Source: Polyangiaceae bacterium (GTDB taxonomy: Bacteria > Myxococcota_A > Polyangia > Polyangiales > Polyangiaceae). Taken from it: 50,281 bases of DNA. Under the pieces are notes generated by a model. That model made no database searches. It saw only the letters and a list, made by a program, of their open reading frames with translations, and had not been told where the DNA came from. The stretch's first letter is position 1, and every line of letters starts with the position of its first letter. The position numbers were made by a program, and so were the translations under genes. Of the stretch, positions 437 to 50,281 are shown in pieces. Location of the stretch: assembly GCA_050287085.1 (NCBI GenBank), contig JBNKBE010000032.1, forward strand, positions 1-50,281. Reading direction: 5' to 3'.

Positions 437-1639
437 ATGCACCAGTCGCAGTCTGCTTCGTTGTTGTCGCCCATGCTCCGACGTCCCATTGCTTCGTCGG
501 GGGTTGGACGGGCGCGGCTCTCGCTTGGAACGCTTGCTTTCGTGGGCTTGCTGCTGGGGGGCTGCGCGGCCAAATCGGGTGACGACGAGTCCAAGGCCTC
601 AGCGGAAGACCGGGACGGAGGCGAGTCCTCTCAGGGCTCCCCGTCGGCAGGCGACAAGCCCCCGGCGGATGGGGCCGATGGGGATGAGCTCATCACAGAA
701 GACGACACTTCGGGTGAGCCGAGCTTGGCTGATGGCGGCGTGGGCGCCGCCCCAGTCGGTGGGGATGGCGGACTCTCTCCCGAAGAAGAGTTGGTTGATT
801 CCCTGCTCGGCGATCCCACCGCGGTCTTGCCCGGCGGGGGCTTCGTCGACATTGTCGAGGACGAGAACGGCGTTGTTCAGATCCTGTGTGGCACGGACAT
901 ATGCCAGTGTGCGGACGGAATCGACAACGACGGCGATGGCGAGACGGACAATCTGGACGGCGAGTGCACCAGTCCGTTTGACCACGACGAAGGCACCTTC
1001 GCCACGGGAGTGCCCGGCGATAACAGCGATCCCAACTGGCAGGATTGCTTCTTCGATGGCAACTCAGGCGCCGGCGACGACCGCTGCCGTTACCATACCG
1101 ACTGCATCACCGGTGATGCGGCACCCGATGACCAGCGCTGCCAGGTGGCCGACGAATGCGTCAAGTTCTGCGAGCCGTTGGCACCTCCCGGCTGCGATTG
1201 TTTCGGCTGCTGCGAGGTCCCATACGGCGAGGGCATCATCGGTATTCTCGTGAGTGAATCGTGTTCGCTCGACATGATTGAAGATACCGAGGCATGCCCG
1301 CGCTGCACTCCGAGTCCGCTCTGCAACAATGAGTGTGGCGAATGCGAAGTGTGTGTCGGAAAGGGGCTCCAGGATCTGCCGGACCACTGTTTCGAGCAGA
1401 CCCCACCGGATGACACGACGCCGCCGCCGGATGACACGACGCCGCCGCCGGATGACACGACGCCGCCGCCGGATGACACGACGCCACCGCCGGATGACAC
1501 GACGCCACCGCCGGATGGCACCGGTTCGCCTGGGAACGTTTGCGACGGTGGGGCAACAGCCTGTGTGGTTAGCAGCGACTGCGGGGCGTTTGCCTATTGC
1601 GCCTTCGGCTGTTGCCAAGCGCTACCGGTCATTCAGTAG
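437..1639 (+). CDS. Cys-rich acidic lipoprotein with DxDxDG Ca-binding-like motif and Pro/Asp/Thr repeat stalk (myxobacterial surface protein)
   Basis: Lipobox LLLGGC after a hydrophobic stretch; CQCADGIDNDGDG motif; many Cys; PPDDTTP repeats; C-terminal Cys cluster. Start uncertain: the ORF opens at 344, ATG 437 or 473 is more plausible. Confidence 0.75.
   Translation: MHQSQSASLLSPMLRRPIASSGVGRARLSLGTLAFVGLLLGGCAAKSGDDESKASAEDRDGGESSQGSPSAGDKPPADGADGDELITEDDTSGEPSLADGGVGAAPVGGDGGLSPEEELVDSLLGDPTAVLPGGGFVDIVEDENGVVQILCGTDICQCADGIDNDGDGETDNLDGECTSPFDHDEGTFATGVPGDNSDPNWQDCFFDGNSGAGDDRCRYHTDCITGDAAPDDQRCQVADECVKFCEPLAPPGCDCFGCCEVPYGEGIIGILVSESCSLDMIEDTEACPRCTPSPLCNNECGECEVCVGKGLQDLPDHCFEQTPPDDTTPPPDDTTPPPDDTTPPPDDTTPPPDDTTPPPDGTGSPGNVCDGGATACVVSSDCGAFAYCAFGCCQALPVIQ
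1406..1519 (+). repeat. Coding tandem repeat, 21-bp unit ccggatgacacgacgccrccg x5 plus a partial unit
   Basis: Directly visible; encodes (PDDTTPP)n; no spacers between units. Confidence 0.95.
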
Positions 1640-1680
1640 GCCCATGTGACGCCACGCGCGTGTCGCCGCTTCTGCGGCGC

Positions 1681-1736
1681 CGGCGCAGGGTGCCCTGCGC
1701 CGCGGACTGCCCTGCGCCGCGGACTGCCCTGCGCCG
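1681..1736. repeat. GC-rich hairpin whose right arm is tandemly repeated (17-bp unit tgccctgcgccgcggac x2.7), between convergent genes
   Basis: cggcgcaggg (1681-1690) is the reverse complement of ccctgcgccg, which recurs at a 17-bp period in 1691-1736. Possible terminator or REP-like element. Confidence 0.7.
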
Positions 1737-1752
1737 AGCATTGCTGCCCGCG

Positions 1753-4700
1753 TCAAGACGAGGCCATGGTCGGGTCGAGAGCCGCCTGCGTCTTGTGGGT
1801 TAGCCGGCGCAGCAGCACAAAGCCGCTGGGCACCACCAGCAAGGACAGCAAGGTGGAGACCGTGAGGCCACCGAGCACGATGGTGCCGACTCCGCGGTAG
1901 AGTTCGGAGCCACTGCCATCGCTGAGCACCATCGGCAACAACCCCGCGAGGGACGTCAGTGTGCTCATGAAGATGGGACGAATGCGCGCGCGAACCGCTT
2001 CGCCGGTGGCGACTTCCAGGGCTTCGCCGGCGCGCAAGCGTGCCAGCGCGCCATCGATGATCAGGATGGCGTTGTTGACCACGATGCCGAACAGGATCAG
2101 AAAGCCGAGGGCGGCCATGAGATCAAATGGCTGAGGCTCAAGCACTAGCTCAAAGAGTTTCAAGCCGAGAACTCCGCCGGCGGCCGCTAGCGGCACCGTG
2201 GTAAGCACGACGAGAGGGGCAAGAAAGTCCTCGTAGAGCGCCGCCAAGAGCAGGTAGAGGATGAGCAATGCAATCGCCAAGATCCCAGCAAATTGCTTCT
2301 GAGCAGCGGCCAGATCCCCGGCTGAGCCGCCCAGCTCGACGGTGATGTTCGCCGGAATGGCGCCTTCCTTCTGGAGCTTGTCCAGGTGCGCGCCGATCTT
2401 TTCGATGGCGACTTCCAACGGTGTGTCATCGGGGGGGGTGACTTGGAGTACCATCGCCCGATCCCGTTCCAGGCGTTTGATGACCGTGGGACCAAGCTCT
2501 TCTTTGATGTCTGCCAGCACTGAAAATGGCACTACTTCCCCGTTCGGGAGCGCAACTGGCGCCGTTAAGAGCGAGCCATCGTCGAATGCGGCGTCCGTTT
2601 CCGCATTGCGCAGCACGATGTCGAGCTTGCGTCTGCCTTCCTCGCCAAACTCGCCCAGAATAGTGCCGTCAACATAGCTGTCAGTGATCAGTCCGAGGTC
2701 CAGCGGCGTGAGCCCAACCCGAGCAAGTTCGTCTCTGCGCGGGAGCACGTGGAACTCTGGCGCGCCAAAATCGAGTACGGGGTCTGGGCGCACCTGGGCG
2801 CCGGATACCACTGTCCGCAGCTCTCCAAATAGCCGGCGGCTCACTTGTACGAGGGTACGTAGGTCAGCTCCTTTGAGTTCAACGCGCACGGCCCGGCCCT
2901 CGCCGATGCCGCGGGCAAAGAGTGCGGCCTGCGATGCAAAGGCGATCGCTCCCGGAATGCGTGCGTGTAGCGTGCGCATGTAGTCCCTGAGGGCGAGCAC
3001 CTCGTCCGGATCTTCCGCCACACCACCGACGAATAGTAGCCCCGGTGTACCTACGAAGAAGCTGCGCTGGACAGATGGAACGCCATCGACGCGCCTGTGC
3101 GTATGCGCCATCATTTCGGCTTGGTTCTCGAAGCCGATCTTCTTCAGCTCGGGAACGCTGGCTCCAGGGGGAGGCAACACGATACCGAAGATCAGATTGC
3201 GGTTGCCAGTCGGAAGGTATTCCATCTTGGGCAGCCAAGCGATAACCACCAGTGCGGACAAACCCAGCCCCAGCGCAACGGCTGACAGCGCGCGAAAACG
3301 GCTCACCGCAACCCACGTTGTAAGTTGCGTCACCCGGTCGCGGAATACCGCGGCCGCCCGTATCGGGCTCAGAAAGGCACGGCGATCCGGTGCTCGCTCA
3401 CTTGTTTCCGGTTCTGCCTTGGGACGCAGGACGCGCGCCGCGAAACTCGGGATGGCGAGCACCGCCACGAGAAGTGATATCGACACCGAGAGCGCAATGG
3501 CGTAGGCGATGTCGCGCAGCAGCTCTCCGACCTGCCCTTGCCAGGTCATGATCGGTATGAACACAGCCGCGGTAGTTGCCGTTGAAGCGAGCAGCGCTCC
3601 CCAGACCTCCACGATGCCATGGTACGCTGCTTCACGGGGCGTCGCGACCCGAGCGCGCCAGGTGTCAATATTCTCCAGCGCCACGATCGAGTTGTCGACC
3701 ACCATACCCACGGCGAAGGTGATGCCCGCGAGACTGACGACGTTGACGCTTCGGCCAATCAGCGCCATGCCTAGCGCTGTTACTGTCACACACAGCGGAA
3801 TGGCGAGCGCCACGATCAGGGAAGCTGCGAGACTGCGCAGGAAGAGCAGTAGGATCAAGGTGGCGAGGACCGCACCCAGGAGCAGGTTGTTCCGTACCTG
3901 CTCGAGCGCTTCATAGATATAGCCGCTTTGATCGTCGACCACTTCGAGGAGCAGGCCTTCCGGGGCAAAGCGTTCGCGATTGAGCCGCTCAACCTCAGCG
4001 TGGATGCGTTGGGTCAGCTCCAGCACGTTGGAACCTGCTTCGCGTCGCGGCAGTAGCGCAATCGACTCCCGATCGTTGCCGATTGCAAAGCCATCGGCGC
4101 GTCGCAAGCCTAGATGTACGCTTGCGACGTCTCGAAGGCGCACGACGCCCCCCTGTGGATCCGTCTTGACCACAAACTGCTCCAGGTCTTCGACATGGGG
4201 CGCAGCGGTCAAGGTGCGAGTCAGTATCGTCCGCTTGCCGATTTCGAGTTCACCTGCCGAAAGATGGCGCAGTTGACCCCGCAGTTGGGCTGCGATGCTG
4301 GGTATGGTCAATCCCCTGGCGGCCAGCGCGCCCGTGTCGAAGTCGATCTGCAACTCCGAGACCCGCCCACCTCTGATGAACGTGCTGGCGATGCCAGGAA
4401 TGCGTTCCAAGATGGGGACAATCTCCTCCTCGACCCAGGTCCGGTAAGGATCGACGGTCTTGCCATCAAGGTGCTTGACGAGCAATACAGCAAGAGGCGG
4501 GCCCGCCGCATTGGCCGTGCTGACGATCGGCTGCTCAGCACTTTCCGGATAGCGTGGCACTTGGCTGAGCTGATTGGTGACTCGAACCAGGGCCTGTTCC
4601 AGATTTGTTCCGACCTTGAATTCAAGCGTGATCTCCCCACTGCTCGATCGCGCCACCGATTCCATGGTGAGTAGGCCCGGCACTCGCTTGAGCACTTCCT

Positions 4701-41877: not shown

Positions 41878-42492
41878 TCAAGCGGGGAAGCGCCGGATGT
41901 CTTCTGGTGTGTCCCAGTCTTGCAACGCGTGCGCTTCGCCCGCCGGCAGAGTTATGCGTGCTGCGTTCATCGCGACGAGCAGACGGCGCACGCTGTGCTG
42001 TGATTGAGCGAGCGCGCGCTCAACGAATTGAAGCGCGTCCGTCGGGCGGTAGGCGGCGCACAAGGGCTCGAGTTCCGCTCCGCGAGCGTACGCAAGGGCG
42101 GACTTTAGCGGGTGCGTCAGCAGGCTTTGGAACATCGGGACGCTGACATGTGGCATGTCTCCAGCGACGGTCAGCACCCGTGAAGCGTTGGAATAGGAGA
42201 GCAGCAGCGCGTGCAAGCCCCCCATCGGGCCGACCCCCGGGGGGGCGTCAGGCAAACGCTGGTAGGTCAGAGCTTCAAACTCGGGTTGCCCTCCCAGCAG
42301 TACGACGTGGCCCGCTGGGGCCACGGAGCGAAAACGCTCTGCAAGCGTTTGAACGATGGGGCGTCCCGTGCGGGTGGGCAACAGGCCTTTGACAACATGA
42401 CCCATCCTCTTGCCTTCACCTCCAACGAAGATGCCCAGCACAGGGGGGGGAGCGGGCGCGCTGGGGAAATCAGGGTCGTCGGGCGTCAACAC
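41878..42492 (-). CDS. mobA: Molybdenum cofactor guanylyltransferase MobA-like
   Basis: VGGEGKRMG..KGLL, GPMGGL, AGDMP, EPLCAAY, DWDTPED. Confidence 0.85.
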   Translation of the reverse strand: MLTPDDPDFPSAPAPPPVLGIFVGGEGKRMGHVVKGLLPTRTGRPIVQTLAERFRSVAPAGHVVLLGGQPEFEALTYQRLPDAPPGVGPMGGLHALLLSYSNASRVLTVAGDMPHVSVPMFQSLLTHPLKSALAYARGAELEPLCAAYRPTDALQFVERALAQSQHSVRRLLVAMNAARITLPAGEAHALQDWDTPEDIRRFPA

Positions 42493-42512
42493 TCAAGTCC
42501 TTCCGAGCCCAC

Positions 42513-43721
42513 TCAGAGGTCTGCGAGACGCAACACCGACACGCGACTCCCCGCGGGGAGGTCTCCGGACTCTTCGGGTACAACCGCCAGGGCATCGGCC
42601 CACGCAAGCGATCCAGCGGAGCCCGAGCTCTGATTTCCGTCCGGGAACGCTCTGTTGCCTCGCAAGTGCACGCGATAGAAGCCCAGTCGCCCGGGTGTAT
42701 GGGAGAGCGCGCTTTCCAGCACTGCCATCCGCTCTTCTGGGAAGATCCGCGGCTGGCCTTGCATGGCCCTCAGCAACGGCATTCCGAAGAGGCAAAAGGT
42801 CAGCTGGGCACTCACTGGGTTGCCAGGAAGGCCTAGAATTAGCGTTCTAGCTGCGGATCCGAAGGCAATTGGCTTACCGGGCTTGATTCGCACCTTCGAG
42901 AACTCTAGCTGAACACCCACTCGTGATAGGGCTGTTCGGACGACGTCATGGTCGCCCACGCTTATGCCGCCAATGGTGACCACGAGATCGCTGTCGTTGA
43001 TGGCGTCGGCCAGTGCTTTCACCGTGTTGTCTTCATTGTCGCCAACGTGAGCGACGCGGGTCACTTGCGCACCAGCTCGGTCGCAAAGGCCTGACAGTGC
43101 GATGGTATTCGATTCCGCGAGCATTCCGGCCGGGCCCTTGGTACCCGGTGCTCTTAGCTCGTCGCCTGTTGCAATCAGCGCGACTCGAGGGCGGGCTGAG
43201 ACGTTTACCTCGGTCATGTCGAGGGCGGCGAGCAGGCTCAAAGCGAATGGCGTGAGCACCGCTCCGGCCTCGAGCGCAACCGCCCCTTCCTGCAGTTCAC
43301 TTCCGGCGCGGCGCACGTTCTGAAACGGGTGGATTGGGCCTTCGAAGCGGATACCGTGTTCCGTCCGCTCGCACTTCTCTTGGATGACAACAGCGTCAGC
43401 CCCTGGGGGCAGCACGGCCCCGGTGAAGATGCGACAAGCCTTGTCCGCGGCCAGCATGCCGAGGGGGACGCCCGCCCGGCTTTCGCCCTCAACGGTCAGT
43501 TCGAATAGACCCGCACTGCTAGCATCGCGGGAACTCAGGGCATAACCGTCCATGGCGCTTGCGTCGAAGGGGGGAAGCGGGGCCGGTGATACAACGCTCT
43601 CGAATAGGGTGCGCGATCGCGCTTCGGTCAGTGGCACTTGCTCTGACCCAACCCGCGAAGCGCGAGCCACGATACGCTCGCGTGCCTCGAGAAAGCTAAG
43701 GTTGGACTGGGCGTGGTTCAT
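42513..43721 (-). CDS. moeA: Molybdopterin molybdotransferase MoeA (Glp)
   Basis: PPFDASAMDGYA, IFTGAVLPPGADAVV, ATGDEL, GGISVGDHD, IKPGKP, GLPGNPVS, QSSG. Confidence 0.96.
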   Translation of the reverse strand: MNHAQSNLSFLEARERIVARASRVGSEQVPLTEARSRTLFESVVSPAPLPPFDASAMDGYALSSRDASSAGLFELTVEGESRAGVPLGMLAADKACRIFTGAVLPPGADAVVIQEKCERTEHGIRFEGPIHPFQNVRRAGSELQEGAVALEAGAVLTPFALSLLAALDMTEVNVSARPRVALIATGDELRAPGTKGPAGMLAESNTIALSGLCDRAGAQVTRVAHVGDNEDNTVKALADAINDSDLVVTIGGISVGDHDVVRTALSRVGVQLEFSKVRIKPGKPIAFGSAARTLILGLPGNPVSAQLTFCLFGMPLLRAMQGQPRIFPEERMAVLESALSHTPGRLGFYRVHLRGNRAFPDGNQSSGSAGSLAWADALAVVPEESGDLPAGSRVSVLRLADL

Positions 43722-44004
43722 AGGACTGTGCAGTATTCATCAGTTCAGCACGTCTTTCAACTCGCGGTGGAGCGACGCAAAGAGCGGAGCTGGATCGAGC
43801 GTTGCCTTCTTTGGCGAGGCGTCTTGGAATGAAGGCCGCGCGGCGCGGGTATTGAGCTACTTCAATCTTCTGGGCTGCTGAGATCGCGTTTCGGGGCCCC
43901 AATGGGTTTCGCCTGTGGCGCGGAAGAAAGCGGCCGGGCCGGTAGTATGTGGCTATGGTATTGTACCGTGTCGTCCTCGGCGGCACTGCCATTGGGACAT
44001 CGCT

Positions 44005-45849
44005 ATGAATTATCAACAAGGCGCGCCTGCGCTCGACAGGGCCAAAACCTCCCGCCTGCACGGTCGCTCCGTGAACCTGTGTCTGGCCGGATTGAGCTTT
44101 CTCCTCGTCCTGGCGTGTGCTCCGACGCTTGCGGCAGGTGCGCCGCCCGAAGCCGCGCCGCCCGAAGCCGCGCCGCCCACACCCAACCGGATTCTGATAG
44201 CGCCCAGCGGGGCCGTCGGCGAAGCGCCGATGCCGCCAGGCTCCGATGCTGAGGCAGTGGGCTCGAGGCCAGCCAACGACTCGGAAACGATAGACGCGGA
44301 GCCCATGCCCTTGCCGGAGAACGAGGCCGAGGCTGAGGACGAATTCTATTTCACCGGAGCGGATGGTATTCCGCGCGATGAGAGCGGAGCCCCACTTGCT
44401 TCGCCTCCGGTTGGGCAGAACGCACAAGCAGACGCGGATGTGGCTGACGAGGAGGTCGCAGATACCGACCCCAGCGCGCTGACGGATTTTCGAGCCGAGC
44501 TGGACGCCTATGGGCGTTGGGTGGACCATCCCGAATACGGCACGGTTTGGGTGCCGGACGAATCAGCTGTGGGAACGGACTTTGCGCCCTACGTGACACG
44601 CGGACGATGGCGTCTCAACACTTCCAACGCCTGGGTCTGGGACAGCAGCTATCCCTTCGGTTGGGTCGTTTTCCACTATGGTCGCTGGGCCTACGTTCCG
44701 AGCTATGGCTGGAGCTGGTTTCCGGGGCGGCGTTATGCACCAGCCTGGGTGACCTTTAGGGTGTTTCCTGGTGGCGGCAGCTACATCGGCTGGGCCCCAC
44801 TATCCCCTGCCTTCTATTGGCGGGGCGGGAGCGCCGTCTTCTTTGGGAGCGCCTTTGCCTCGAGTTGGGTGTTCTGTCCGTCGCGCTACGTGTTCTCGGG
44901 CAGTCCGCGTTCACACCTCGTGCGCGAGCGCTACCGGGTGCGAAAACTGGCCAGTGGCACCCGTCCTTTGCCGTTGAGTCGGGCACGCAGGCCTATCAGT
45001 CCTGCTACGCGTGCGCTTGGAGCTTTTGGAGGGAACATACCCAAGACGCGAATCAGTGGCGATCCGAGGGCCTTGGCTGCACGCCGCTTCCGAGGTCGCT
45101 TGGGTGCGGCTTCTTCGGGGGCTGGCCCGCAAGGACGGCTCCAGGCGGCAAGCGGCATGCCGTCGCTGGTTAGGGCTTCCAACCAGGACCGCAGGGCAAC
45201 GCGCCTGGCCTCGGGGCGCGTCATGCCGCCCACCAAAACCGTCGCGTCGCGTGTCGGTCGCGTAGCGAGCGTCAGCCATGCAACACGTAGCGCGCTTCCT
45301 CAGACGCGGTTCCGCTCGAGCACAGGCCGTCCGGCGCGCAATTCCATCACGGCTTCTCGAGCGGCGCTTCGCAGCTGGGCCCGACAGGCCAGCACGCGTC
45401 GAGCCAGCGCCAATGCCGGAGCTCCGGGGGCGGGTAGAGTCGCTCCGATCGTGTCGGCTCGCCCTTCCAATCGCGGTGGGAATTCCTCCCATCGCGTGAA
45501 CTCGTCGATCGTTTCCGCCGGAAGGGGGGCGTCGACCGTGGTTCGGCGTTCATCCGCGCGTCGGAGCGCACAGGGGCCGCAGATCGTTCGTCAAAGGGCT
45601 TCTTCTGGTCGTGTCGCAACGCCGGCTGCTGCGACCCGGGTGCGCGGCGCGCTTAGGTCGGGACAGTCCACGGGCGCTCGTCCTGCACTGAAGCGTGCTG
45701 CCTCACGCCCTGCGTCGCGCGCCCGTCCGGCCACCGTCCGCTCGCTTCCCGCCGCGGCCGCTCGCGTTCCGCGTAGCGCCGCGCGCGTGCGCCCTGCCCG
45801 TTCCTACCGCACCTCGGGAGGAGGGCGTCGTGGGGGCTCGCAGCGCTGA
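44005..45849 (+). CDS. Secreted DUF6600-like protein (aromatic YG/WG repeats) with a long Arg/Ser/Ala-rich tail
   Basis: Signal peptide, acidic linker, LDAYGRWVDHPEYGTVWVP...FAPY..GRW...PFGWVVFHYGRW...YAPAWV...IGWAPL. Start uncertain (ORF opens at 43915). Confidence 0.8.
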   Translation: MNYQQGAPALDRAKTSRLHGRSVNLCLAGLSFLLVLACAPTLAAGAPPEAAPPEAAPPTPNRILIAPSGAVGEAPMPPGSDAEAVGSRPANDSETIDAEPMPLPENEAEAEDEFYFTGADGIPRDESGAPLASPPVGQNAQADADVADEEVADTDPSALTDFRAELDAYGRWVDHPEYGTVWVPDESAVGTDFAPYVTRGRWRLNTSNAWVWDSSYPFGWVVFHYGRWAYVPSYGWSWFPGRRYAPAWVTFRVFPGGGSYIGWAPLSPAFYWRGGSAVFFGSAFASSWVFCPSRYVFSGSPRSHLVRERYRVRKLASGTRPLPLSRARRPISPATRALGAFGGNIPKTRISGDPRALAARRFRGRLGAASSGAGPQGRLQAASGMPSLVRASNQDRRATRLASGRVMPPTKTVASRVGRVASVSHATRSALPQTRFRSSTGRPARNSITASRAALRSWARQASTRRASANAGAPGAGRVAPIVSARPSNRGGNSSHRVNSSIVSAGRGASTVVRRSSARRSAQGPQIVRQRASSGRVATPAAATRVRGALRSGQSTGARPALKRAASRPASRARPATVRSLPAAAARVPRSAARVRPARSYRTSGGGRRGGSQR

Positions 45850-46130
45850 CGGCGTGAGCCGTGGTTTGAGCCCCAAGATCCAGACGGCTGGCTCAGCACT
45901 GGCGCGCTTCCGTTGCCGGTGGAATCTGCTTGGAACCGATGCCACGAGGGATCGGCGACCCAGCAACTAGAGAGAGCGCCGATCAAAGTGGCCAAAACAG
46001 CAGCATCGGGGCGGCCCCATCCTTGGGGTCGACGCGATGCTGCCGCGTTTTCACGTTCGGTCCCATGCCCTCGGGGATGGGGCCCGCCGCGCTGGGGTCG
46101 GGCTCTTTGGCCAACCATTCCGTTCGGCTT

Positions 46131-46159
46131 TTAGCATGAGCTGGCAGGGTTGCTATGGT
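46131..46159 (+). promoter_or_regulatory. Putative sigma70-type promoter for prkA (TTAGCA-17 nt-TATGGT with extended TG)
   Basis: ttagca at 46131-46136, TGc-TATGGT at 46151-46159, GGAGG at 46196-46200. Confidence 0.4.
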
Positions 46160-46204
46160 TAGGCACCGTGACGCCGGTGCGTCGCGCAAGCAATTGGAGG
46201 CCCG

Positions 46205-48274
46205 GTGGTGTTTGAGATTGGTAACCTGACGTCAGAGATCGCGCAGCTACAGGACTACGACTTGTATCGCGACTTGTCGTGGGAGGGTAGCTTCGAGGAA
46301 TACCTGGAGCTCATCAAAGAGCGGCCGAAGATCACTCGTAACGCCTTCCAGCGCGTTTACGACATGGTGCTCTCCTACGGGACGGAAGAGTACATAGACA
46401 ACAAGAAGCGGCTCGTTCGCTACATGTTCTTTCAAGACCCGATCGACAATGGAAAGGATGCAGTCTTCGGGCTCGATATTCCATTGATGCGACTGATGAA
46501 CGTCTTGAAGGCTGCTTCTGCTGGCTATGGTCCTGAGAGACGCGTCATTCTGTTGCACGGTCCTGTGGGGTCGAGCAAGAGCACGATCGCACGTTTGCTG
46601 AAGAAAGGTCTCGAACGATACTCACAGACGCCTGACGGCGCCATGTATACGTTCAAGTGGGTAAACCTGAAGGGTACCGGATTGGCCGGCGAGACCGAGG
46701 ACGAGTTCGACTCGCCCATGCACGATGAACCGCTGCGACTGATCCCTCTGGAGTGGAGAAAAGCGGCACTGGGCAAGCTCAGCGTTCCCGAGGGGCCATT
46801 CAAGCTGCGTGTTGAAGGTGATCTGGACCCAGCGAGCCGCTTCATCTTTCAGGGCTTGATGGCCAAGTACGGCGGCGATTGGGGCAAGGTAGTTGCCAAA
46901 CACATTCGCGTGAGGCGACTGGTTCTCAGTGAAAAAGACCGGGTAGGCATTGGTACCTTCCAGCCCAAGGATGAAAAGAACCAAGACTCGACCGAGTTGA
47001 CCGGGGACATCAACTACAGAAAGATCGCTACCTACGGCTCCGACTCGGACCCGCGGGCATTCAACTTTGACGGCGAGTTCAACATTGCCAACCGTGGCAT
47101 CGTCGAGTTCGTGGAGATGCTCAAGCTGGATGTGGCATTCCTCTACGACCTGCTCGGTGCTTCGCAGGAGCACAAGATCAAGCCGAAGAAGTTTGCGCAG
47201 ACTGACATTGACGAAGTCATCATCGGTCACACCAACGAAGCTGAGTACAAGCGACTCGTTACCAATGAGTTCATGGAGGCCTTGCGTGACCGCACCATCA
47301 AGATAGACATACCGTATATCACGCGCTTGTCCGACGAGGTGCGGATCTATGAGAAGGAGTTCAACGCTCAACGCGTGAAGGGCAAGCATATTGCGCCCCA
47401 TACCGCCGAGGTAGCCGCGATGTGGGCGGTTCTTACCCGCCTAGAAACTCCCAAGAAGCACAATCTGCAAGTTCAGCAGAAGATGAAGCTCTACGACGGT
47501 AAAGTGCTTCCCGGCTACACACAGGACACCGTCAAGGAGCTGCGGAAAGAGAGCGCGGAAGAGGGCATGTCGGGGATCAGTCCTCGCTACGTTCAGGATA
47601 AGATCAGCAACGCATTGGTGAGTGAAGTCGCCGAGGGCACCATCAATCCCTTCATGGTTCTGAATGAACTGGAAAAGGGGCTGACCAACCACTCGTTGAT
47701 AACCAACGAAGACCAGCGAAAGCGCTACAAAGAACTCATCGGCGTTGTTAAGTCGGAATACGACGAGATCGTCAAGAATGAGGTGCAGCGGGCGATCAGC
47801 GCGGACGAAGAGGGCATCTCCAAGCTTGCCGCCAACTACATCGACAACATCAAGGCCTACACCCTCAAGGAGCGAGTCAAGAATCGCTACACCGGGCAGG
47901 ATGAGGAACCGGATGAGCGCTTGATGCGCGCAATCGAGGAAAAGATCGACATTCCCGACAACCGCAAGGATGATTTCCGGCGGGAGATCATGAATTACAT
48001 CGGCGCCAAGGCCATTGAGGGTCAGAAGTTCGACTGGCAGAGCAACGACCGCCTACGCCGAGCGCTCGAGCTGAAGCTATTCGAAGACCAGAAGGACAGC
48101 ATCAAGTTGAAGACCTTGGTCAGCGCGGTCGTTGACAAGGAAACTCAAGAGAAGATTGATATCATCCGAGGCCGACTCATTCGCTACTTCGGGTACAACG
48201 AGGTGAGTGCGACCGACGTGCTCAACTACGTGGCTTCGATCTTCGCTCGCGGTGACGTCAAGGGCGGCGAGTAG
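46205..48274 (+). CDS. prkA: PrkA/YeaG family AAA+ serine protein kinase
   Basis: [12 protein letters not shown]alker [62 protein letters not shown]. Confidence 0.95.
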
Positions 48275-48455: not shown

Positions 48456-49190
48456 TCAAGGCAGCACCCCGTGGGCCCGGAGCTCAGCGAGTGCCTTGTC
48501 CAGGGCCGCGGGAGAGCTTGGCAGCGACGCCTCTGGATCGGCGAGCCGCGCTATCGCCATGATGCCAAGCGACGTTGGATGGAAGGCACGGCCAAGTCCG
48601 GTCTTTGGATCTCGATATACGAGTAGAGTTGTCTGACGCGCCTCGGGGGTATGGGGCTGCTCGTCCGTGCTGTGCTTGGCGGGGGAAGGGGTGTCGTTGT
48701 GCTGCAGCCGTCGCCGAGCGTCGCGTGCAAAGTCGACCACGGCGAAGTCGTACTGGCGCACGAAGAGCGTTCGCTCCAGCCCCGGGTCTTGGGGGCTCGG
48801 CACGTGCTCAGAGACAGACGCGGCGTACAACAGCCATTCGTAGTCGGCCAGTTCGGCTGCGGCTGGATGGTCTGGGTGGTGTTCTTCGATATAGGTCGCG
48901 AGCGACTCGCCGAAGCGGTTTGGGTCGTAGTGTGAGGGCGGGTACTGTTGCTCCATGCCGGCTATGATCGCCGGCCAGAGATTGTCCTTGCGGCTCTCGA
49001 AGTACCATCGCGTTGCGGGCTGCAAACGATTGAGTATGTGGGTGACGTTGCGTTGGATCAACGTACGGTAGAAGCTGAACCGCGCCACGCCGGAGGGGCT
49101 GGGTCCAAAGGCTGCGCTGAAGTCATCAGCTCTCGTTCGCCCTGACAGGAAGTCCCGCATTTGCTGATGGAAGACTTCAAGCGACACCAA
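48456..49190 (-). CDS. MNIO partner protein (DUF2063-like, BufC/HvfC-type)
   Basis: FHQQMRDFL...RFSFYR..I..N...IL....PAT...PP...FG..L..Y...ELADYEW pattern; overlaps the MNIO stop by 14 bp. Confidence 0.85.
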   Translation of the reverse strand: MVSLEVFHQQMRDFLSGRTRADDFSAAFGPSPSGVARFSFYRTLIQRNVTHILNRLQPATRWYFESRKDNLWPAIIAGMEQQYPPSHYDPNRFGESLATYIEEHHPDHPAAAELADYEWLLYAASVSEHVPSPQDPGLERTLFVRQYDFAVVDFARDARRRLQHNDTPSPAKHSTDEQPHTPEARQTTLLVYRDPKTGLGRAFHPTSLGIMAIARLADPEASLPSSPAALDKALAELRAHGVLP

Positions 49191-50181
49191 CTACCTCGGG
49201 CTGTGGGGACACTTCAGAAAGTACACCGGGTTGCTTCTGAGGGAGAGTGCGAGCGCCGGCGGCGGGTTCGACCTTCATCTGACGCCAGTGGTCCTGCGCT
49301 TGTCGGAATAGGAGCTTTGCGCGATCGGCTTCGTTCAGTACGACGTCAAGGGGCGGAATGTTTGTGTCCCATTCGATCAACGTTGGTACTGGTCCCAGCT
49401 GACGTAGCACTCGCTCGTAGAGCGCCCAAACCGGATCAGCAATTGGCTCGCCGTGGGTGTCGAGTAATACATCACACTCCACGTCCTGAGCGTGACCGGC
49501 CAAATGGATTTGGACGCTGCGTTCGAGTGGCAATGACTGCATCAGCGTCCACGGATCGCGCTTGTGATTGCGGGCGTTCAGGTAGGCGTTGTTGACGTCC
49601 AGCAGCAACCACGCGTCGGACTCTGCCAACACGGCGCTCACAAACTCCCCCTCGCTCAAGAGCGACGAAGGCTCGATGTCCCTGCTAGCGGGCATTTCAG
49701 CGTAGTAGGTGATGTTCTCGAGAGCGATGGGCCGCTCCAAGCGTTCAGAGGCTTCTCGCACGCGTTGTGCCACGTGACGCACGGCCTCTTCCGTAAACGG
49801 AAGGGGCAACAGATCGTGAAAGTAGTGGCCCGCAATATGCTGGTAGCACAGATGATCAGAAAAGAAGGGCGCCTCGATTCGATCTAGCAGCACCTTGAGT
49901 CGCCTCAGGTAGTCACCATCCAACGGATCGGGTCCCCCGATATTCAACGCTACGCCATGGGCCAGTAGCGGGAAGCGCTCCTCGGCCTGCTTGAGGGCTT
50001 GTTGTCGTGCTCCTCCTTGGGCGATGAAGTTTTCTGGGATGAACTCCAACCAGTCGAGTGAGCGTTGAGTTGAAAGAATACTCTCGTAGAGCTCGCGTCT
50101 GAAGCCGATACCCACGCCGAGTTCGCGCTTTATGGGCGCTCCACTCGGCGCACGTCGGGCACAATCCGCGGACGTGGGCAA
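49177..50181 (-). CDS. Multinuclear non-heme iron-dependent oxidative enzyme (MNIO, DUF692 family)
   Basis: GVGIGFR, WLEFIPENF, HGVALNIG, SDHLC, DLLPLP, ALENI, LLLDVNN, QIHLAGH, DTHG, LIEWD; TTG start. Confidence 0.95.
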   Translation of the reverse strand: MPTSADCARRAPSGAPIKRELGVGIGFRRELYESILSTQRSLDWLEFIPENFIAQGGARQQALKQAEERFPLLAHGVALNIGGPDPLDGDYLRRLKVLLDRIEAPFFSDHLCYQHIAGHYFHDLLPLPFTEEAVRHVAQRVREASERLERPIALENITYYAEMPASRDIEPSSLLSEGEFVSAVLAESDAWLLLDVNNAYLNARNHKRDPWTLMQSLPLERSVQIHLAGHAQDVECDVLLDTHGEPIADPVWALYERVLRQLGPVPTLIEWDTNIPPLDVVLNEADRAKLLFRQAQDHWRQMKVEPAAGARTLPQKQPGVLSEVSPQPEVVGVA

Positions 50182-50281
50182 TTAATTGCCCTGCCCTGGA
50201 CACCCCGCTTGCCCAGGGCATCCAGCGTCCAGAGCGGAAGCGCCGCCGGTCCCCGGGCAACCCGCATCCCCCGGGCAGCCG
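50182..50281 (-). CDS. Partial (5'-truncated by window edge) putative RiPP precursor with GCPG repeats
   Basis: Manual translation of the minus strand from 50280 gives GCPGDAGCPGTGGASALDAGCPGQAGCPGQGN-TAA. The stop (50184-50182) directly abuts the MNIO TTG start. The repeats differ only at synonymous positions. Confidence 0.8.
   Translation of the reverse strand, partial: GCPGDAGCPGTGGASALDAGCPGQAGCPGQGN

What the first reader, a model, noticed from the sequence alone, without database searches (positions are those of the whole stretch)
48456..50281. MNIO (DUF692) RiPP cluster with an unannotated precursor carrying tandem (D/Q)AGCPG cores
Seen: the last 100 nt on the minus strand encode ...GCPG-DAGCPG-TGGASAL-DAGCPG-QAGCPG-QGN*, which the ORF track misses. 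The four GCPG units are coded ggc tgc ccg ggg / ggt tgc ccg ggg / gga tgc cct ggg / ggg tgt cca ggg, so only synonymous positions vary, as expected for selection on this peptide. Its stop abuts the start of an intact DUF692 enzyme, which overlaps a DUF2063-like partner gene. Established: precursor-MNIO-partner is the layout of bufferin (BufABC) and HvfABC clusters, where Cys residues become copper-binding heterocycles; MbnB and ChrH also act on Cys. Inference: this is a distinct precursor family. Its Cys are paired six residues apart in a G-C-P-G context, unlike HvfA EGKCG repeats, the ChrA CPACG motif or MbnA. Pro after every Cys removes the downstream amide NH and so constrains the chemistry. 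Likely product: a multiply modified metal-binding peptide from a probable myxobacterium. I cannot confirm novelty without a search.
Basis: partly seen in the sequence, partly recalled or inferred. Interest (0 to 1): 0.9.

Follow-up and report, generated by a model that had tools for sequence, protein, structure and literature searches.

The report
Cys-Pro repeat lipopeptide with two cytochromes
This is the tail of a membrane-anchored peptide with many Gly-Cys-Pro repeats, part of a five-gene myxobacterial cluster (iron enzyme, partner, two haem proteins) that probably turns the cysteines into metal-binding rings, and its prolines offer a natural test of how those rings form.

Summary
The window is a whole contig that breaks inside the precursor. 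A matching 5' half (RBS, lipoprotein signal, 10 more GCPG units) ends contig C34; the join is inferred from gene order, not bridged by a contig.

The locus belongs to a Myxococcota family of five parts kept together in shuffled orders: lipoprotein precursor, BufB/HvfB-type MNIO, partner, an unnamed CxxCH protein and a cytochrome P460-like domain. The P460 domain is fused to the precursor in 7 of 36 cases.

Across 36 precursors, Gly precedes 263 of 265 core Cys and Pro follows 220. GCPG and six-residue spacing are not family traits, and 3 precursors have no Pro.

No precursor HMM hit; a bufferin control did. I found no description in the papers searched; one relevant dataset was unseen.

Best reading (0.55): a lipid-anchored poly-5-thiooxazole copper binder working with the two haem proteins. 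Cys-Pro lacks the N-H needed for the azetidinone route favoured for FonB, so modification here would exclude that route for this enzyme. No chemistry is shown. The scan earlier noted a Cys-Gly lipoprotein MNIO locus on other Polyangiales DNA, probably another family. Verdict: new variant of a known kind.

The parts
50182..50280 (-). 3' end of the precursor gene: four GCPG units, short tail and stop. The 5' part is inferred to be G000:C34:42600-42935 (L001 15601-15936): RBS, ATG, lipoprotein signal with Cys24, 10 GCPG units, open at the contig end
   Evidence: join inferred from gene order of L002-L005; no bridging contig
50251..50280 (-). core units 1 and 2 (GCPG, DAGCPG)
   Evidence: codon table
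50194..50229 (-). core units 3 and 4 (DAGCPG, QAGCPG)
   Evidence: codon table
49177..50181 (-). MNIO (DUF692) of the BufB/HvfB subfamily. The His/Glu/Asp/Asn positions expected to bind iron and the EWD Asp are present; exact start codon uncertain
   Evidence: PF05114 322 bits; NF050167 BufB 300.5 bits vs cut-off 310, ChrH 43, MbnB 31; column counts
48456..49190 (-). MNIO partner (DUF2063/HvfC-like, PME type 1)
   Evidence: NF050145 E 1.7e-10, PF09836 E 0.001, both under cut-off; a family profile finds it directly after the MNIO in related loci

Best explanation
A five-part operon makes a lipid-anchored, many-ringed metal binder that works beside two haem c proteins. (1, shown in sequence) The precursor has a conserved leader/signal (M-K-K-x-L-x-x-[VI]-L-E-x-A), a lipobox Cys, an acidic flexible linker and 2-16 (A)GC(P) units; here at least 13-14. 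(2, inferred) In the cytoplasm the MNIO-partner pair binds the leader and oxidises each core Cys to a thioaldehyde. The carbonyl oxygen of the invariant upstream Gly closes the ring directly to a 5-thiooxazole (-4 Da each). The downstream Pro nitrogen has no H and takes no part. (3, inferred) The chain is exported by Sec, lipidated at the lipobox Cys and displayed on a membrane, where its thiooxazole thiolates bind copper, as in bufferins and fontiphorin. (4, coupling shown, role inferred) A cytochrome P460-like domain that keeps the cross-linking Lys, and an unnamed exported mono-haem protein ('CYT'), act in the same compartment. They most likely deal with the redox side of metal stress (thiol or Cu redox state, NO or peroxide).
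For: Enzyme type: all 25 family MNIOs scanned hit BufB and HvfB models; the window enzyme scores BufB 300 bits against ChrH 43 and MbnB 31. This subfamily makes 5-thiooxazoles (10.64898/2025.12.15.693703, part 1 of 2 read; PMC13097082, sections 12-15). Substrate signature: Gly at -1 in 263 of 265 core Cys while +1 varies (P 220, A 31, G 12, S 1, H 1), as expected if the upstream amide forms the ring. Enzyme-substrate covariation: enzymes with Arg29 (inferred equivalent of FonB Arg16, proposed to contact the acidic -3 residue) go with D/E at -3 in 91 of 188 Cys, against 8 of 53 without it. Arg29 is in 24 of 32 family enzymes and 3 of the 34 other rows (kin are not independent). Coupling: CYT-first searches found precursor+MNIO+partner in 15 of 18 fetched genomes of the order, with P460 in 14 of those 15. 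All five parts were in 7 of 8 new genomes across the phylum, and precursor and MNIO each in 25 of 28 new loci of another family. Gene order is reshuffled many ways. Precursor-P460 fusions occur in 7 of 36, plus 2 more. A lipobox-position Cys lies at residue 23-28 in 36 of 36. The invariant Lys of the P460-like domain aligns with Lys78 of M. capsulatus P460, the haem cross-link.
Against: No product was observed. FonBC, the best-tested relative, did not process Pro at any repeat position and preferred a small residue after Cys (PMC13097082 section 12). No characterised thiooxazole site that I read about is followed by Pro. No copper gene, DoxX or sigma/anti-sigma pair is conserved around the cluster (an ECF sigma-like gene groups in 5 of 36 loci). 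The host already carries a canonical BufA2 cluster on C5, so a second copper sponge may be redundant. The cores have almost no His or Lys. The family MNIOs form only a moderately supported set (SH-aLRT 85, quick tree) that excludes L047 and includes L091, which has an SCG precursor and no CYT. CYT also occurs without an MNIO in 4 loci.
Confidence: 0.55

Rival explanations
1. The repeats are the MNIO substrate, but Cys-Pro is turned into something other than a 5-thiooxazole (an arrested thioaldehyde/enethiol, a Cys-Cys thioether macrocycle as in ChrH products, or a change to Pro itself). This clade would then be a new MNIO chemistry.
For: FonBC rejects Pro. Family enzymes share a loop just after the E-N motif (M163-P164 in 31 of 32) seen in 3 of the 34 other rows, and N197 is changed in 7 of 32. 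ChrA-type motifs also begin Cys-Pro (PMC13056109 passages), and Cys-x-x-Cys spacing makes up 20 of 229 spacings.
Against: The ChrH model scores 43 bits against 300 for BufB. Spacing is unconstrained (3-17) and one precursor has a single visible unit (L144), which argues against paired-Cys chemistry. Pro-free members use enzymes nested in the same set.
Confidence: 0.2
2. The rings are thiooxazoles, but the chain is mainly a redox or sulfur-carrying arm for the haem proteins (a tethered multi-thiol carrier), not a copper sponge.
For: The P460-like domain and CYT accompany nearly every locus, and the P460 domain is repeatedly fused to the repeats. CYT has invariant Arg/Asp residues besides CxxCH in 174 of 174 sequences, which looks more like an enzyme than an electron carrier (inference). 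Three of four MNIO-less CYT loci (two from one genus) lie beside rhodanese/MBL, YeeE-type sulfur transport or DsrE genes. The host has a separate bufferin.
Against: No sulfur gene is conserved at the MNIO-bearing loci. The thiooxazole peptides in the papers read are described as copper binders. The sulfur neighbours rest on two genera.
Confidence: 0.15
3. The repeat lipoprotein is not an MNIO substrate: it is a disulfide-linked or collagen-like surface protein, and the MNIO acts on another target.
For: The C34 half hits Pfam Collagen (29.8 bits) because Gly falls every third residue in its 6-mer units. In L044, L046 and L050 the MNIO is on the opposite strand from the precursor.
Against: Most family units are 7, 8, 4, 5 or 9 residues, which breaks the Gly-X-Y register; the other five precursors miss the Collagen cut-off. 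The precursor is directly upstream of the MNIO in most loci, has a conserved leader, and covaries with the enzyme.
Confidence: 0.07
4. The window fragment and the C34 end belong to different genes, so the window precursor is of unknown length and may lack a lipoprotein signal.
For: No end overlap was found between the contigs. The Logan contig starts at the same base as the window end and gives no bridge.
Against: These are the only two GCPG arrays in the genome, both at contig ends, in complementary halves. The C34 end stops inside an 18-bp tandem. The join recreates the order P460< CYT> precursor> MNIO> partner> of L002-L005. Other assemblies break or carry gaps in the same repeat (L052, L139, L155, L161).
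Confidence: 0.03

Closest known systems
Captophorins: fontiphorin FonABC, oxazolin HvfABC, gonophorin (EGKCG family; PMC13097082; 10.64898/2026.07.17.739211)
   Same: Repeat precursor with one Cys per unit, exported; MNIO of the same subfamily with a DUF2063-type partner; an acidic residue three before Cys in many units.
   Different: Unit is (D/T/E)-A-G-C-(P/A/G), with no Lys. FonBC rejects Pro at all sites. Lipoprotein signal in all members. Two haem c proteins instead of DoxX.
Bufferins Buf1 (DUF2282) and Buf2 (BufA2, NF050166) with BufB/BufC (10.1101/2024.03.18.585515, listing only; PMC12452194)
   Same: Gene order precursor-MNIO-partner. BufB is the best-scoring model (300.5 bits, just under its cut-off of 310). 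About 16% of Buf2 are predicted lipoproteins, and rare Buf1-cytochrome c fusions are reported.
   Different: No 4- or 6-Cys bufferin domain and no HMM hit, while the host's own BufA2 does hit. Low-complexity chain with 2-16 Cys. No conserved DoxX or sigma/anti-sigma genes.
DAG-RiPPs, e.g. lipo-NedABC and DybAH (PMC13056109)
   Same: MNIO precursor with a lipoprotein signal, predicted to be lipidated and membrane-anchored.
   Different: Different core motif; GCP does not occur in the main text; no cytochromes mentioned. The paper's dataset of MNIO-linked lipoproteins was not seen.
Chryseobasins ChrA/ChrH (CPACG motif)
   Same: Contain a Cys-Pro dipeptide; some myxobacterial members.
   Different: ChrH model 43 bits against cut-off 600; no CPACG motif; many independent units.
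Cytochrome P460 / c'-beta family, PF16694 (PMC11928373)
   Same: 19 of 19 cluster domains hit PF16694 at E<=0.01; C-terminal CxxCH; Lys at the cross-link position.
   Different: Those scored singly fall under the Pfam cut-off (15-27 bits against 27). Lipoprotein-like or fused to a RiPP core. No link to MNIO clusters found in print.

Membership tests
Bufferin (Buf1/Buf2) | Precursor matches DUF2282/BufA1 or BufA2 model | tested here: not met
   No such hit for the window fragment, 6 precursors or 7 more; control L008 ORF hits NF050166 at 74.4 bits, cut-off 60
Bufferin (Buf1/Buf2) | MNIO passes the BufB equivalog cut-off | tested here: inconclusive
   300.5 bits against 310; best model by far
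Bufferin (Buf1/Buf2) | Gene order precursor-MNIO-partner | tested here: met
   window; most related loci
Bufferin (Buf1/Buf2) | DoxX and ECF sigma/anti-sigma genes in the cluster | tested here: inconclusive
   No conserved DoxX-like group among neighbours of 36 loci; an ECF-like group in 5; found by all-against-all BLAST, not by a DoxX profile
EGKCG family (oxazolin, fontiphorin) | Repeated EGKCG (Lys-Cys) motif | tested here: not met
   Residue before Cys is Gly in 263 and Ser in 2 of 265
Captophorin class | MNIO with a DUF2063 (PME1) partner | tested here: met
   Partner hits NF050145 (E 1.7e-10; 7e-16 and 1.5e-12 in two relatives) and PF09836 weakly, under cut-offs
Captophorin class | Cys converted to 5-thiooxazole | not testable with these tools
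   needs MS/NMR
Captophorin class | Product binds copper | not testable with these tools
   needs titration and growth tests
DAG-RiPP | Lipoprotein signal with lipobox Cys on an MNIO precursor | tested here: met
   Basic N-terminus, hydrophobic stretch and [GAS]-Cys at 23-28 in 36 of 36; pattern only, no signal-peptide predictor; for this locus it rests on the inferred join
DAG-RiPP | Lipidation shown | not testable with these tools
   needs MS
Chryseobasin | CPACG motif and ChrH-type enzyme | tested here: not met
   NF050165 43 bits against 600; motif not seen in the precursors printed
Methanobactin | MbnB-type enzyme | tested here: not met
   TIGR04159 31 bits against 325
'CxxxxC' MNIO precursor family (PMC12452194; cluster X of PMC13056109) | Match to the authors' CxxxxC profile; DoxX and Lactamase_B_2 neighbours | tested here: inconclusive
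   Profile and alignment figure not available; that spacing is 18 of 229 here; those neighbours are not conserved at MNIO loci
Cytochrome P460 (cluster domain) | P460 fold, CxxCH and Lys at the cross-link site | tested here: met
   profile hits 14 P460/c'-beta sequences of the PDB at E<=0.001; invariant Lys aligns with 6hiu Lys78
Cytochrome P460 (cluster domain) | Haem-Lys cross-link formed; hydroxylamine oxidation | not testable with these tools
   needs spectra and assay
Cytochrome P460/c'-beta fold (CYT protein) | Same fold | tested here: inconclusive
   Model pLDDT 93.9; best match 7s5o Z 5.3, rmsd 4.2, 127 aligned; five P460/c'-beta entries in the top 11 but tied with unrelated rows; profile comparison probability 9%

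The most novel reading that the evidence does not exclude
A self-contained periplasmic module in which an MNIO clade adapted to Cys-Pro builds a lipid-anchored chain of thiooxazoles (or a new Cys modification) without using the downstream amide. The chain serves as a tethered metal or redox cofactor for a lysine-cross-linked cytochrome P460 and a new family of haem enzyme. In the fused forms one polypeptide would be a lipoprotein, a RiPP and a haem enzyme at once.
Probability: 0.3. Interest if true: 0.85.

Novelty: new variant of a known kind. Interest (0 to 1): 0.66.

Why it matters
How MNIOs close the 5-thiooxazole ring is open. PMC13097082 (section 15) draws two routes, one through a four-membered azetidinone that needs the N-H of the residue after Cys and one by direct attack of the upstream amide, and leans to the first. 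A 2026 preprint calls the steps after oxygen activation unclear. A natural substrate with Pro after most Cys cannot use the azetidinone route, so one co-expression experiment decides the route for this enzyme, or reveals new chemistry. The cluster also ties RiPP metallophores to a cytochrome P460-like domain of unknown role and to an unnamed haem protein family of about 370 clusters at 50% identity. A named record of Enhygromyxa salina matches one such locus, which offers a likely culturable system. The repeats break assemblies and most hosts are MAGs, which may be why annotation-based mining missed the family (inference).

Tried and rejected
Bridging the contig gap: no end overlap. No RNA holder was listed and one DNA run, possibly the source, holds the stretch. 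Its contig starts at the window's last base.

CYT-P460 binding prediction: no answer, score 0.00; not evidence either way.

CYT fold: Foldseek found nothing at E<=0.001 for either model. VIA-align gave best Z 4.4 and 5.3. The PDB sequence search hit only around CxxCH. The single fused domain of L048 found no PDB relative; the profile did.

ESM Atlas: CYT's best hit is an unnamed Myxococcota cluster (0.93, low recognition); the precursor had nothing over 0.77.

Promoter and terminator scans found nothing above chance.

A collagen reading was rejected (see rivals). P0054, an apparent partner-CYT fusion, was set aside because its linker looks like off-frame read-through.

Literature searches with no hits: DUF692 + cytochrome P460, thiooxazole + Cys-Pro (83), Enhygromyxa + DUF692. 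MNIO + Myxococcota + precursor listed four papers; MNIO + cytochrome c + fusion listed nothing relevant; captophorin + proline gave one paper whose only mention concerns fragmentation.

Earlier-scan look-ups by CYT sequence found nothing; by MNIO sequence one unrelated EGKCG-type note (108).

Rows dropped before counts: G160 and G055 (short matches with stops) and G123 (unpublished); L051 and L059 (near copies of L003 and L058) from the precursor set; L055, L058 (partial) and L059 from the tree.
Full report
OBSERVATION. The last 100 bases of the window, read on the minus strand, are an open frame of 32 codons with four GCPG units and a stop at 50182-50184. The stop is followed at once by the TTG of a 334-aa DUF692 protein (PF05114, 322 bits), which overlaps a 244-aa DUF2063/HvfC-like gene. 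The window is the whole of contig C32 of a 6.2-Mb, 160-contig genome. Two GCPG motifs within 12 residues occur in the six frames of that genome only here and at the 3' end of contig C34. Over the 14 units of both ends, first and second codon positions never vary and all four third positions do.

THE MISSING HALF. C34 ends in a 3'-open frame with an AGGA ribosome site, ATG, a basic N-terminus, a hydrophobic stretch, L-V-A-C at residues 21-24, an acidic linker and 10 GCPG units. It stops inside an 18-bp tandem. No end overlap with C32 was found, and the one sequencing run that holds the stretch has a contig starting at the window's last base, so the join is inferred. Joining gives the order P460-like gene (opposite strand), CYT, precursor, MNIO, partner, exactly as in L002-L005, which include the two nearest enzymes in the tree. 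The precursor would carry at least 13-14 units.

THE FAMILY. An MNIO-first scan gave 6 loci. Five have a lipoprotein-type ORF with GCP repeats and a conserved 350-aa CxxCH protein (CYT); the sixth has a Lys-rich precursor and no CYT. I then searched with CYT. It matched 22 of 301 genomes of the order, counting the host, one unpublished genome (G123, on which only this tally rests) and two spurious short matches. Of the 18 others fetched, 15 have precursor, MNIO and partner; 14 of these also have a P460-like domain, and the fifteenth lies at a contig end. A phylum scan matched 12 of 401 genomes, 8 of them new; 7 of the 8 have all five parts. In one other family 37 of 73 genomes matched; of 28 new loci returned with 1.5-kb flanks, 25 show the precursor and 25 the MNIO. 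Ten metagenome loci agree where they are long enough. As a control, 34 other MNIO loci, mostly with 1.5-2 kb flanks, showed no CYT or P460 hit, and the upstream ORFs printed for them carry SCG-, bufferin- or Lys-rich motifs rather than GCP arrays. Presence is patchy: the one same-genus genome has no CYT match. Named relatives are Polyangiaceae and Polyangia MAGs. A CYT record named for Enhygromyxa salina (KIG13442.1) is 99.7% identical to the CYT of L146, which lies beside an eight-unit precursor and an MNIO.

THE PRECURSOR. Among 36 precursors with 265 core Cys, position -1 is Gly in 263; -2 is Ala in 206; +1 is Pro 220, Ala 31, Gly 12, Ser 1, His 1; +2 is Gly in only 121. Pro follows every Cys in 27 precursors and none in 3. 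Spacing runs from 3 to 17, with 7 commonest and 6 in 20 of 229. So the family unit is (A)GC(P), not a GCPG pair. All 36 have a Cys at 23-28 after Gly, Ala or Ser, and a leader consensus M-K-K-x-L-x-x-[VI]-L-E-x-A. Seven are fused at the C-terminus to the P460-like domain, on separate branches of the enzyme tree, and two more fusions appear. No NCBIfam or Pfam precursor model hits 13 precursors tested in NCBIfam and 6 in Pfam. The host's own bufferin on C5 hits BufA2 above cut-off.

THE ENZYME. BufB is the best model (300.5 bits, cut-off 310), then HvfB (281); ChrH and MbnB score 43 and 31. The His, Glu, Asp and Asn positions expected to bind iron are invariant in 32 family enzymes, and the EWD Asp is present in 31 (the mapping to FonB residues is inferred from motifs). 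In a quick tree of 66 enzymes, a set with SH-aLRT 85 holds 27 of 28 GCP-linked and all 3 Pro-free enzymes, plus L129 (later found to be GCP-linked) and L091 (SCG precursor with the same leader, no CYT). L047 falls outside on a long branch. One origin is likely but not shown. Family enzymes share M163-P164 (31 of 32, against 3 of the 34 other rows) and Arg29 (24 of 32, against 3 of 34); the other rows include L129 and L091. Arg29 goes with an acidic residue three before Cys (91 of 188 Cys, against 8 of 53). This matches the contact proposed for FonB Arg16 (PMC13097082 section 14). Kin are not independent, so this is supporting, not statistical, evidence that the repeats are the substrate.

THE HAEM PROTEINS. 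All 19 P460-like domains aligned hit PF16694 at E<=0.01. Their profile finds 14 solved P460 and c'-beta sequences, and the invariant Lys aligns with Lys78 of M. capsulatus P460, the haem cross-link (10.1101/2024.12.21.628999, passages). c'-beta from Thermus has Phe there. A conserved His in an SPHG-like motif is also present. CYT has no Pfam or NCBIfam family and 373 representatives at 50% identity. CxxCH, two Arg, two Asp and one further Cys are invariant in 174 of 174 sequences, and three more Cys nearly so. Of 131 full-length sequences, 107 have an N-terminal hydrophobic stretch. Its model is confident (pLDDT 93.9), but kinship to the P460 fold is inconclusive. CYT also occurs without the MNIO in 4 loci, 3 of them (two genera) beside rhodanese, sulfur-transport or DsrE genes.

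MECHANISM. Shown: anatomy, conservation and coupling. From papers: enzymes of this subfamily make 5-thiooxazoles, leaving the Cys carbonyl bonded to the next residue, by a mixed-valent di-iron centre that needs the partner (10.64898/2026.07.17.739211, discussion and passages). Inferred: the ring forms from the invariant Gly carbonyl, the Cys nitrogen and the Cys alpha and beta carbons. An oxazolone-thioamide, or a thiooxazole made through the azetidinone, needs the N-H after Cys, which Pro lacks, so direct closure is the route left. The chain is then lipidated and binds copper near the two haem proteins. Against this, FonBC did not accept Pro at any position, no copper or DoxX gene travels with the cluster, and the host has a separate bufferin. 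I give this reading 0.55, different chemistry at Cys-Pro 0.2, a redox or sulfur-carrier role 0.15, non-substrate 0.07 and a wrong join 0.03.

COMPARISON AND NOVELTY. It works like a captophorin and has the layout of a DAG-RiPP, both described classes. It fails the precursor tests for bufferins, EGKCG peptides, chryseobasins and methanobactins. What I saw of the literature: PMC12452194 (abstract, sections 13, 15, 17, term searches in text and in two supplements, one cut when stored: no CPG, AGCP or P460). PMC13097082 (sections 12-15, passages, and its table of Cys-rich ORFs: no GCPA or GCPT; 21 of 25 AGCP rows seen, all one unrelated 294-aa ferredoxin-type protein family; GCPG in three rows, two of them Lys-rich precursors with one or two GCPGK). 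PMC13056109 (abstract and passages; supplements not seen). PMC11928373 (passages). 10.64898/2026.06.05.730506 (one passage). Other papers as search listings only. Searches finding no description. The unseen DAG-RiPP dataset and the CxxxxC alignment figure could list some members; most subscription papers are not in the library. An earlier scan note on a Polyangiales Cys-Gly lipoprotein locus with a zinc peptidase probably concerns the SCG-type loci that sit on another branch here; I could not check that directly.

VERDICT. Real, conserved and apparently undescribed as a family: a new variant of a known kind. Its interest lies in a direct test of an open mechanistic question and in an unexplained, tightly coupled pair of haem proteins. 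Interest 0.66.

Noticed in passing
L008 (G000:C5) 1384-3747: The host has a canonical bufferin cluster: MNIO, partner and a BufA2 gene (74.4 bits) lying downstream on the opposite strand.
   Followed up: partly
L010 (G000:C13) 1378-3198: A third MNIO in a 606-codon open frame that seems to run on into a partner domain, with no precursor seen within 1.5 kb.
   Followed up: no
G000:C18:116621-117430 (L131, L132): Two tandem cytochrome P460 domains in one 417-codon frame.
   Followed up: no
L097 2994-3404 (-): An MNIO precursor candidate without a signal peptide, with a double-glycine-like leader end and GGC/ASC repeats; its genome G278 has 8 MNIO matches. No Pfam or NCBIfam hit.
   Followed up: partly
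L092-L095, L098, L100-L102, L104-L106, L108: A second myxobacterial lipoprotein precursor family with (E)ASCG/GSCG units beside MNIOs of another branch, without the cytochromes.
   Followed up: partly
L091 3882-5276: Family-like MNIO and leader but SCG cores, divergent precursor gene, no CYT or P460; a thioredoxin-like DUF255 gene is nearby.
   Followed up: partly
L033, L039, L034: CYT without MNIO beside MBL-rhodanese and YeeE-type sulfur transport genes (L033, L039) or DsrE (L034).
   Followed up: partly
L148 precursor: GCP/ACP repeats run on into a Cys-rich domain; a different fusion.
   Followed up: no
P0111, P0071: CYT at the end of a 1544-aa protein with di-haem peroxidase- and RoxA-like parts, and CYT before an amidase domain; real fusions or read-through not checked.
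   Followed up: no
window 41878-48274: Neighbours unrelated to the cluster: MobA-like, MoeA, a DUF6600 protein with a long basic tail, and PrkA convergent on the partner gene.
   Followed up: no
L044 precursor: One of eight units has Arg in place of Cys, so single units can decay.
   Followed up: no
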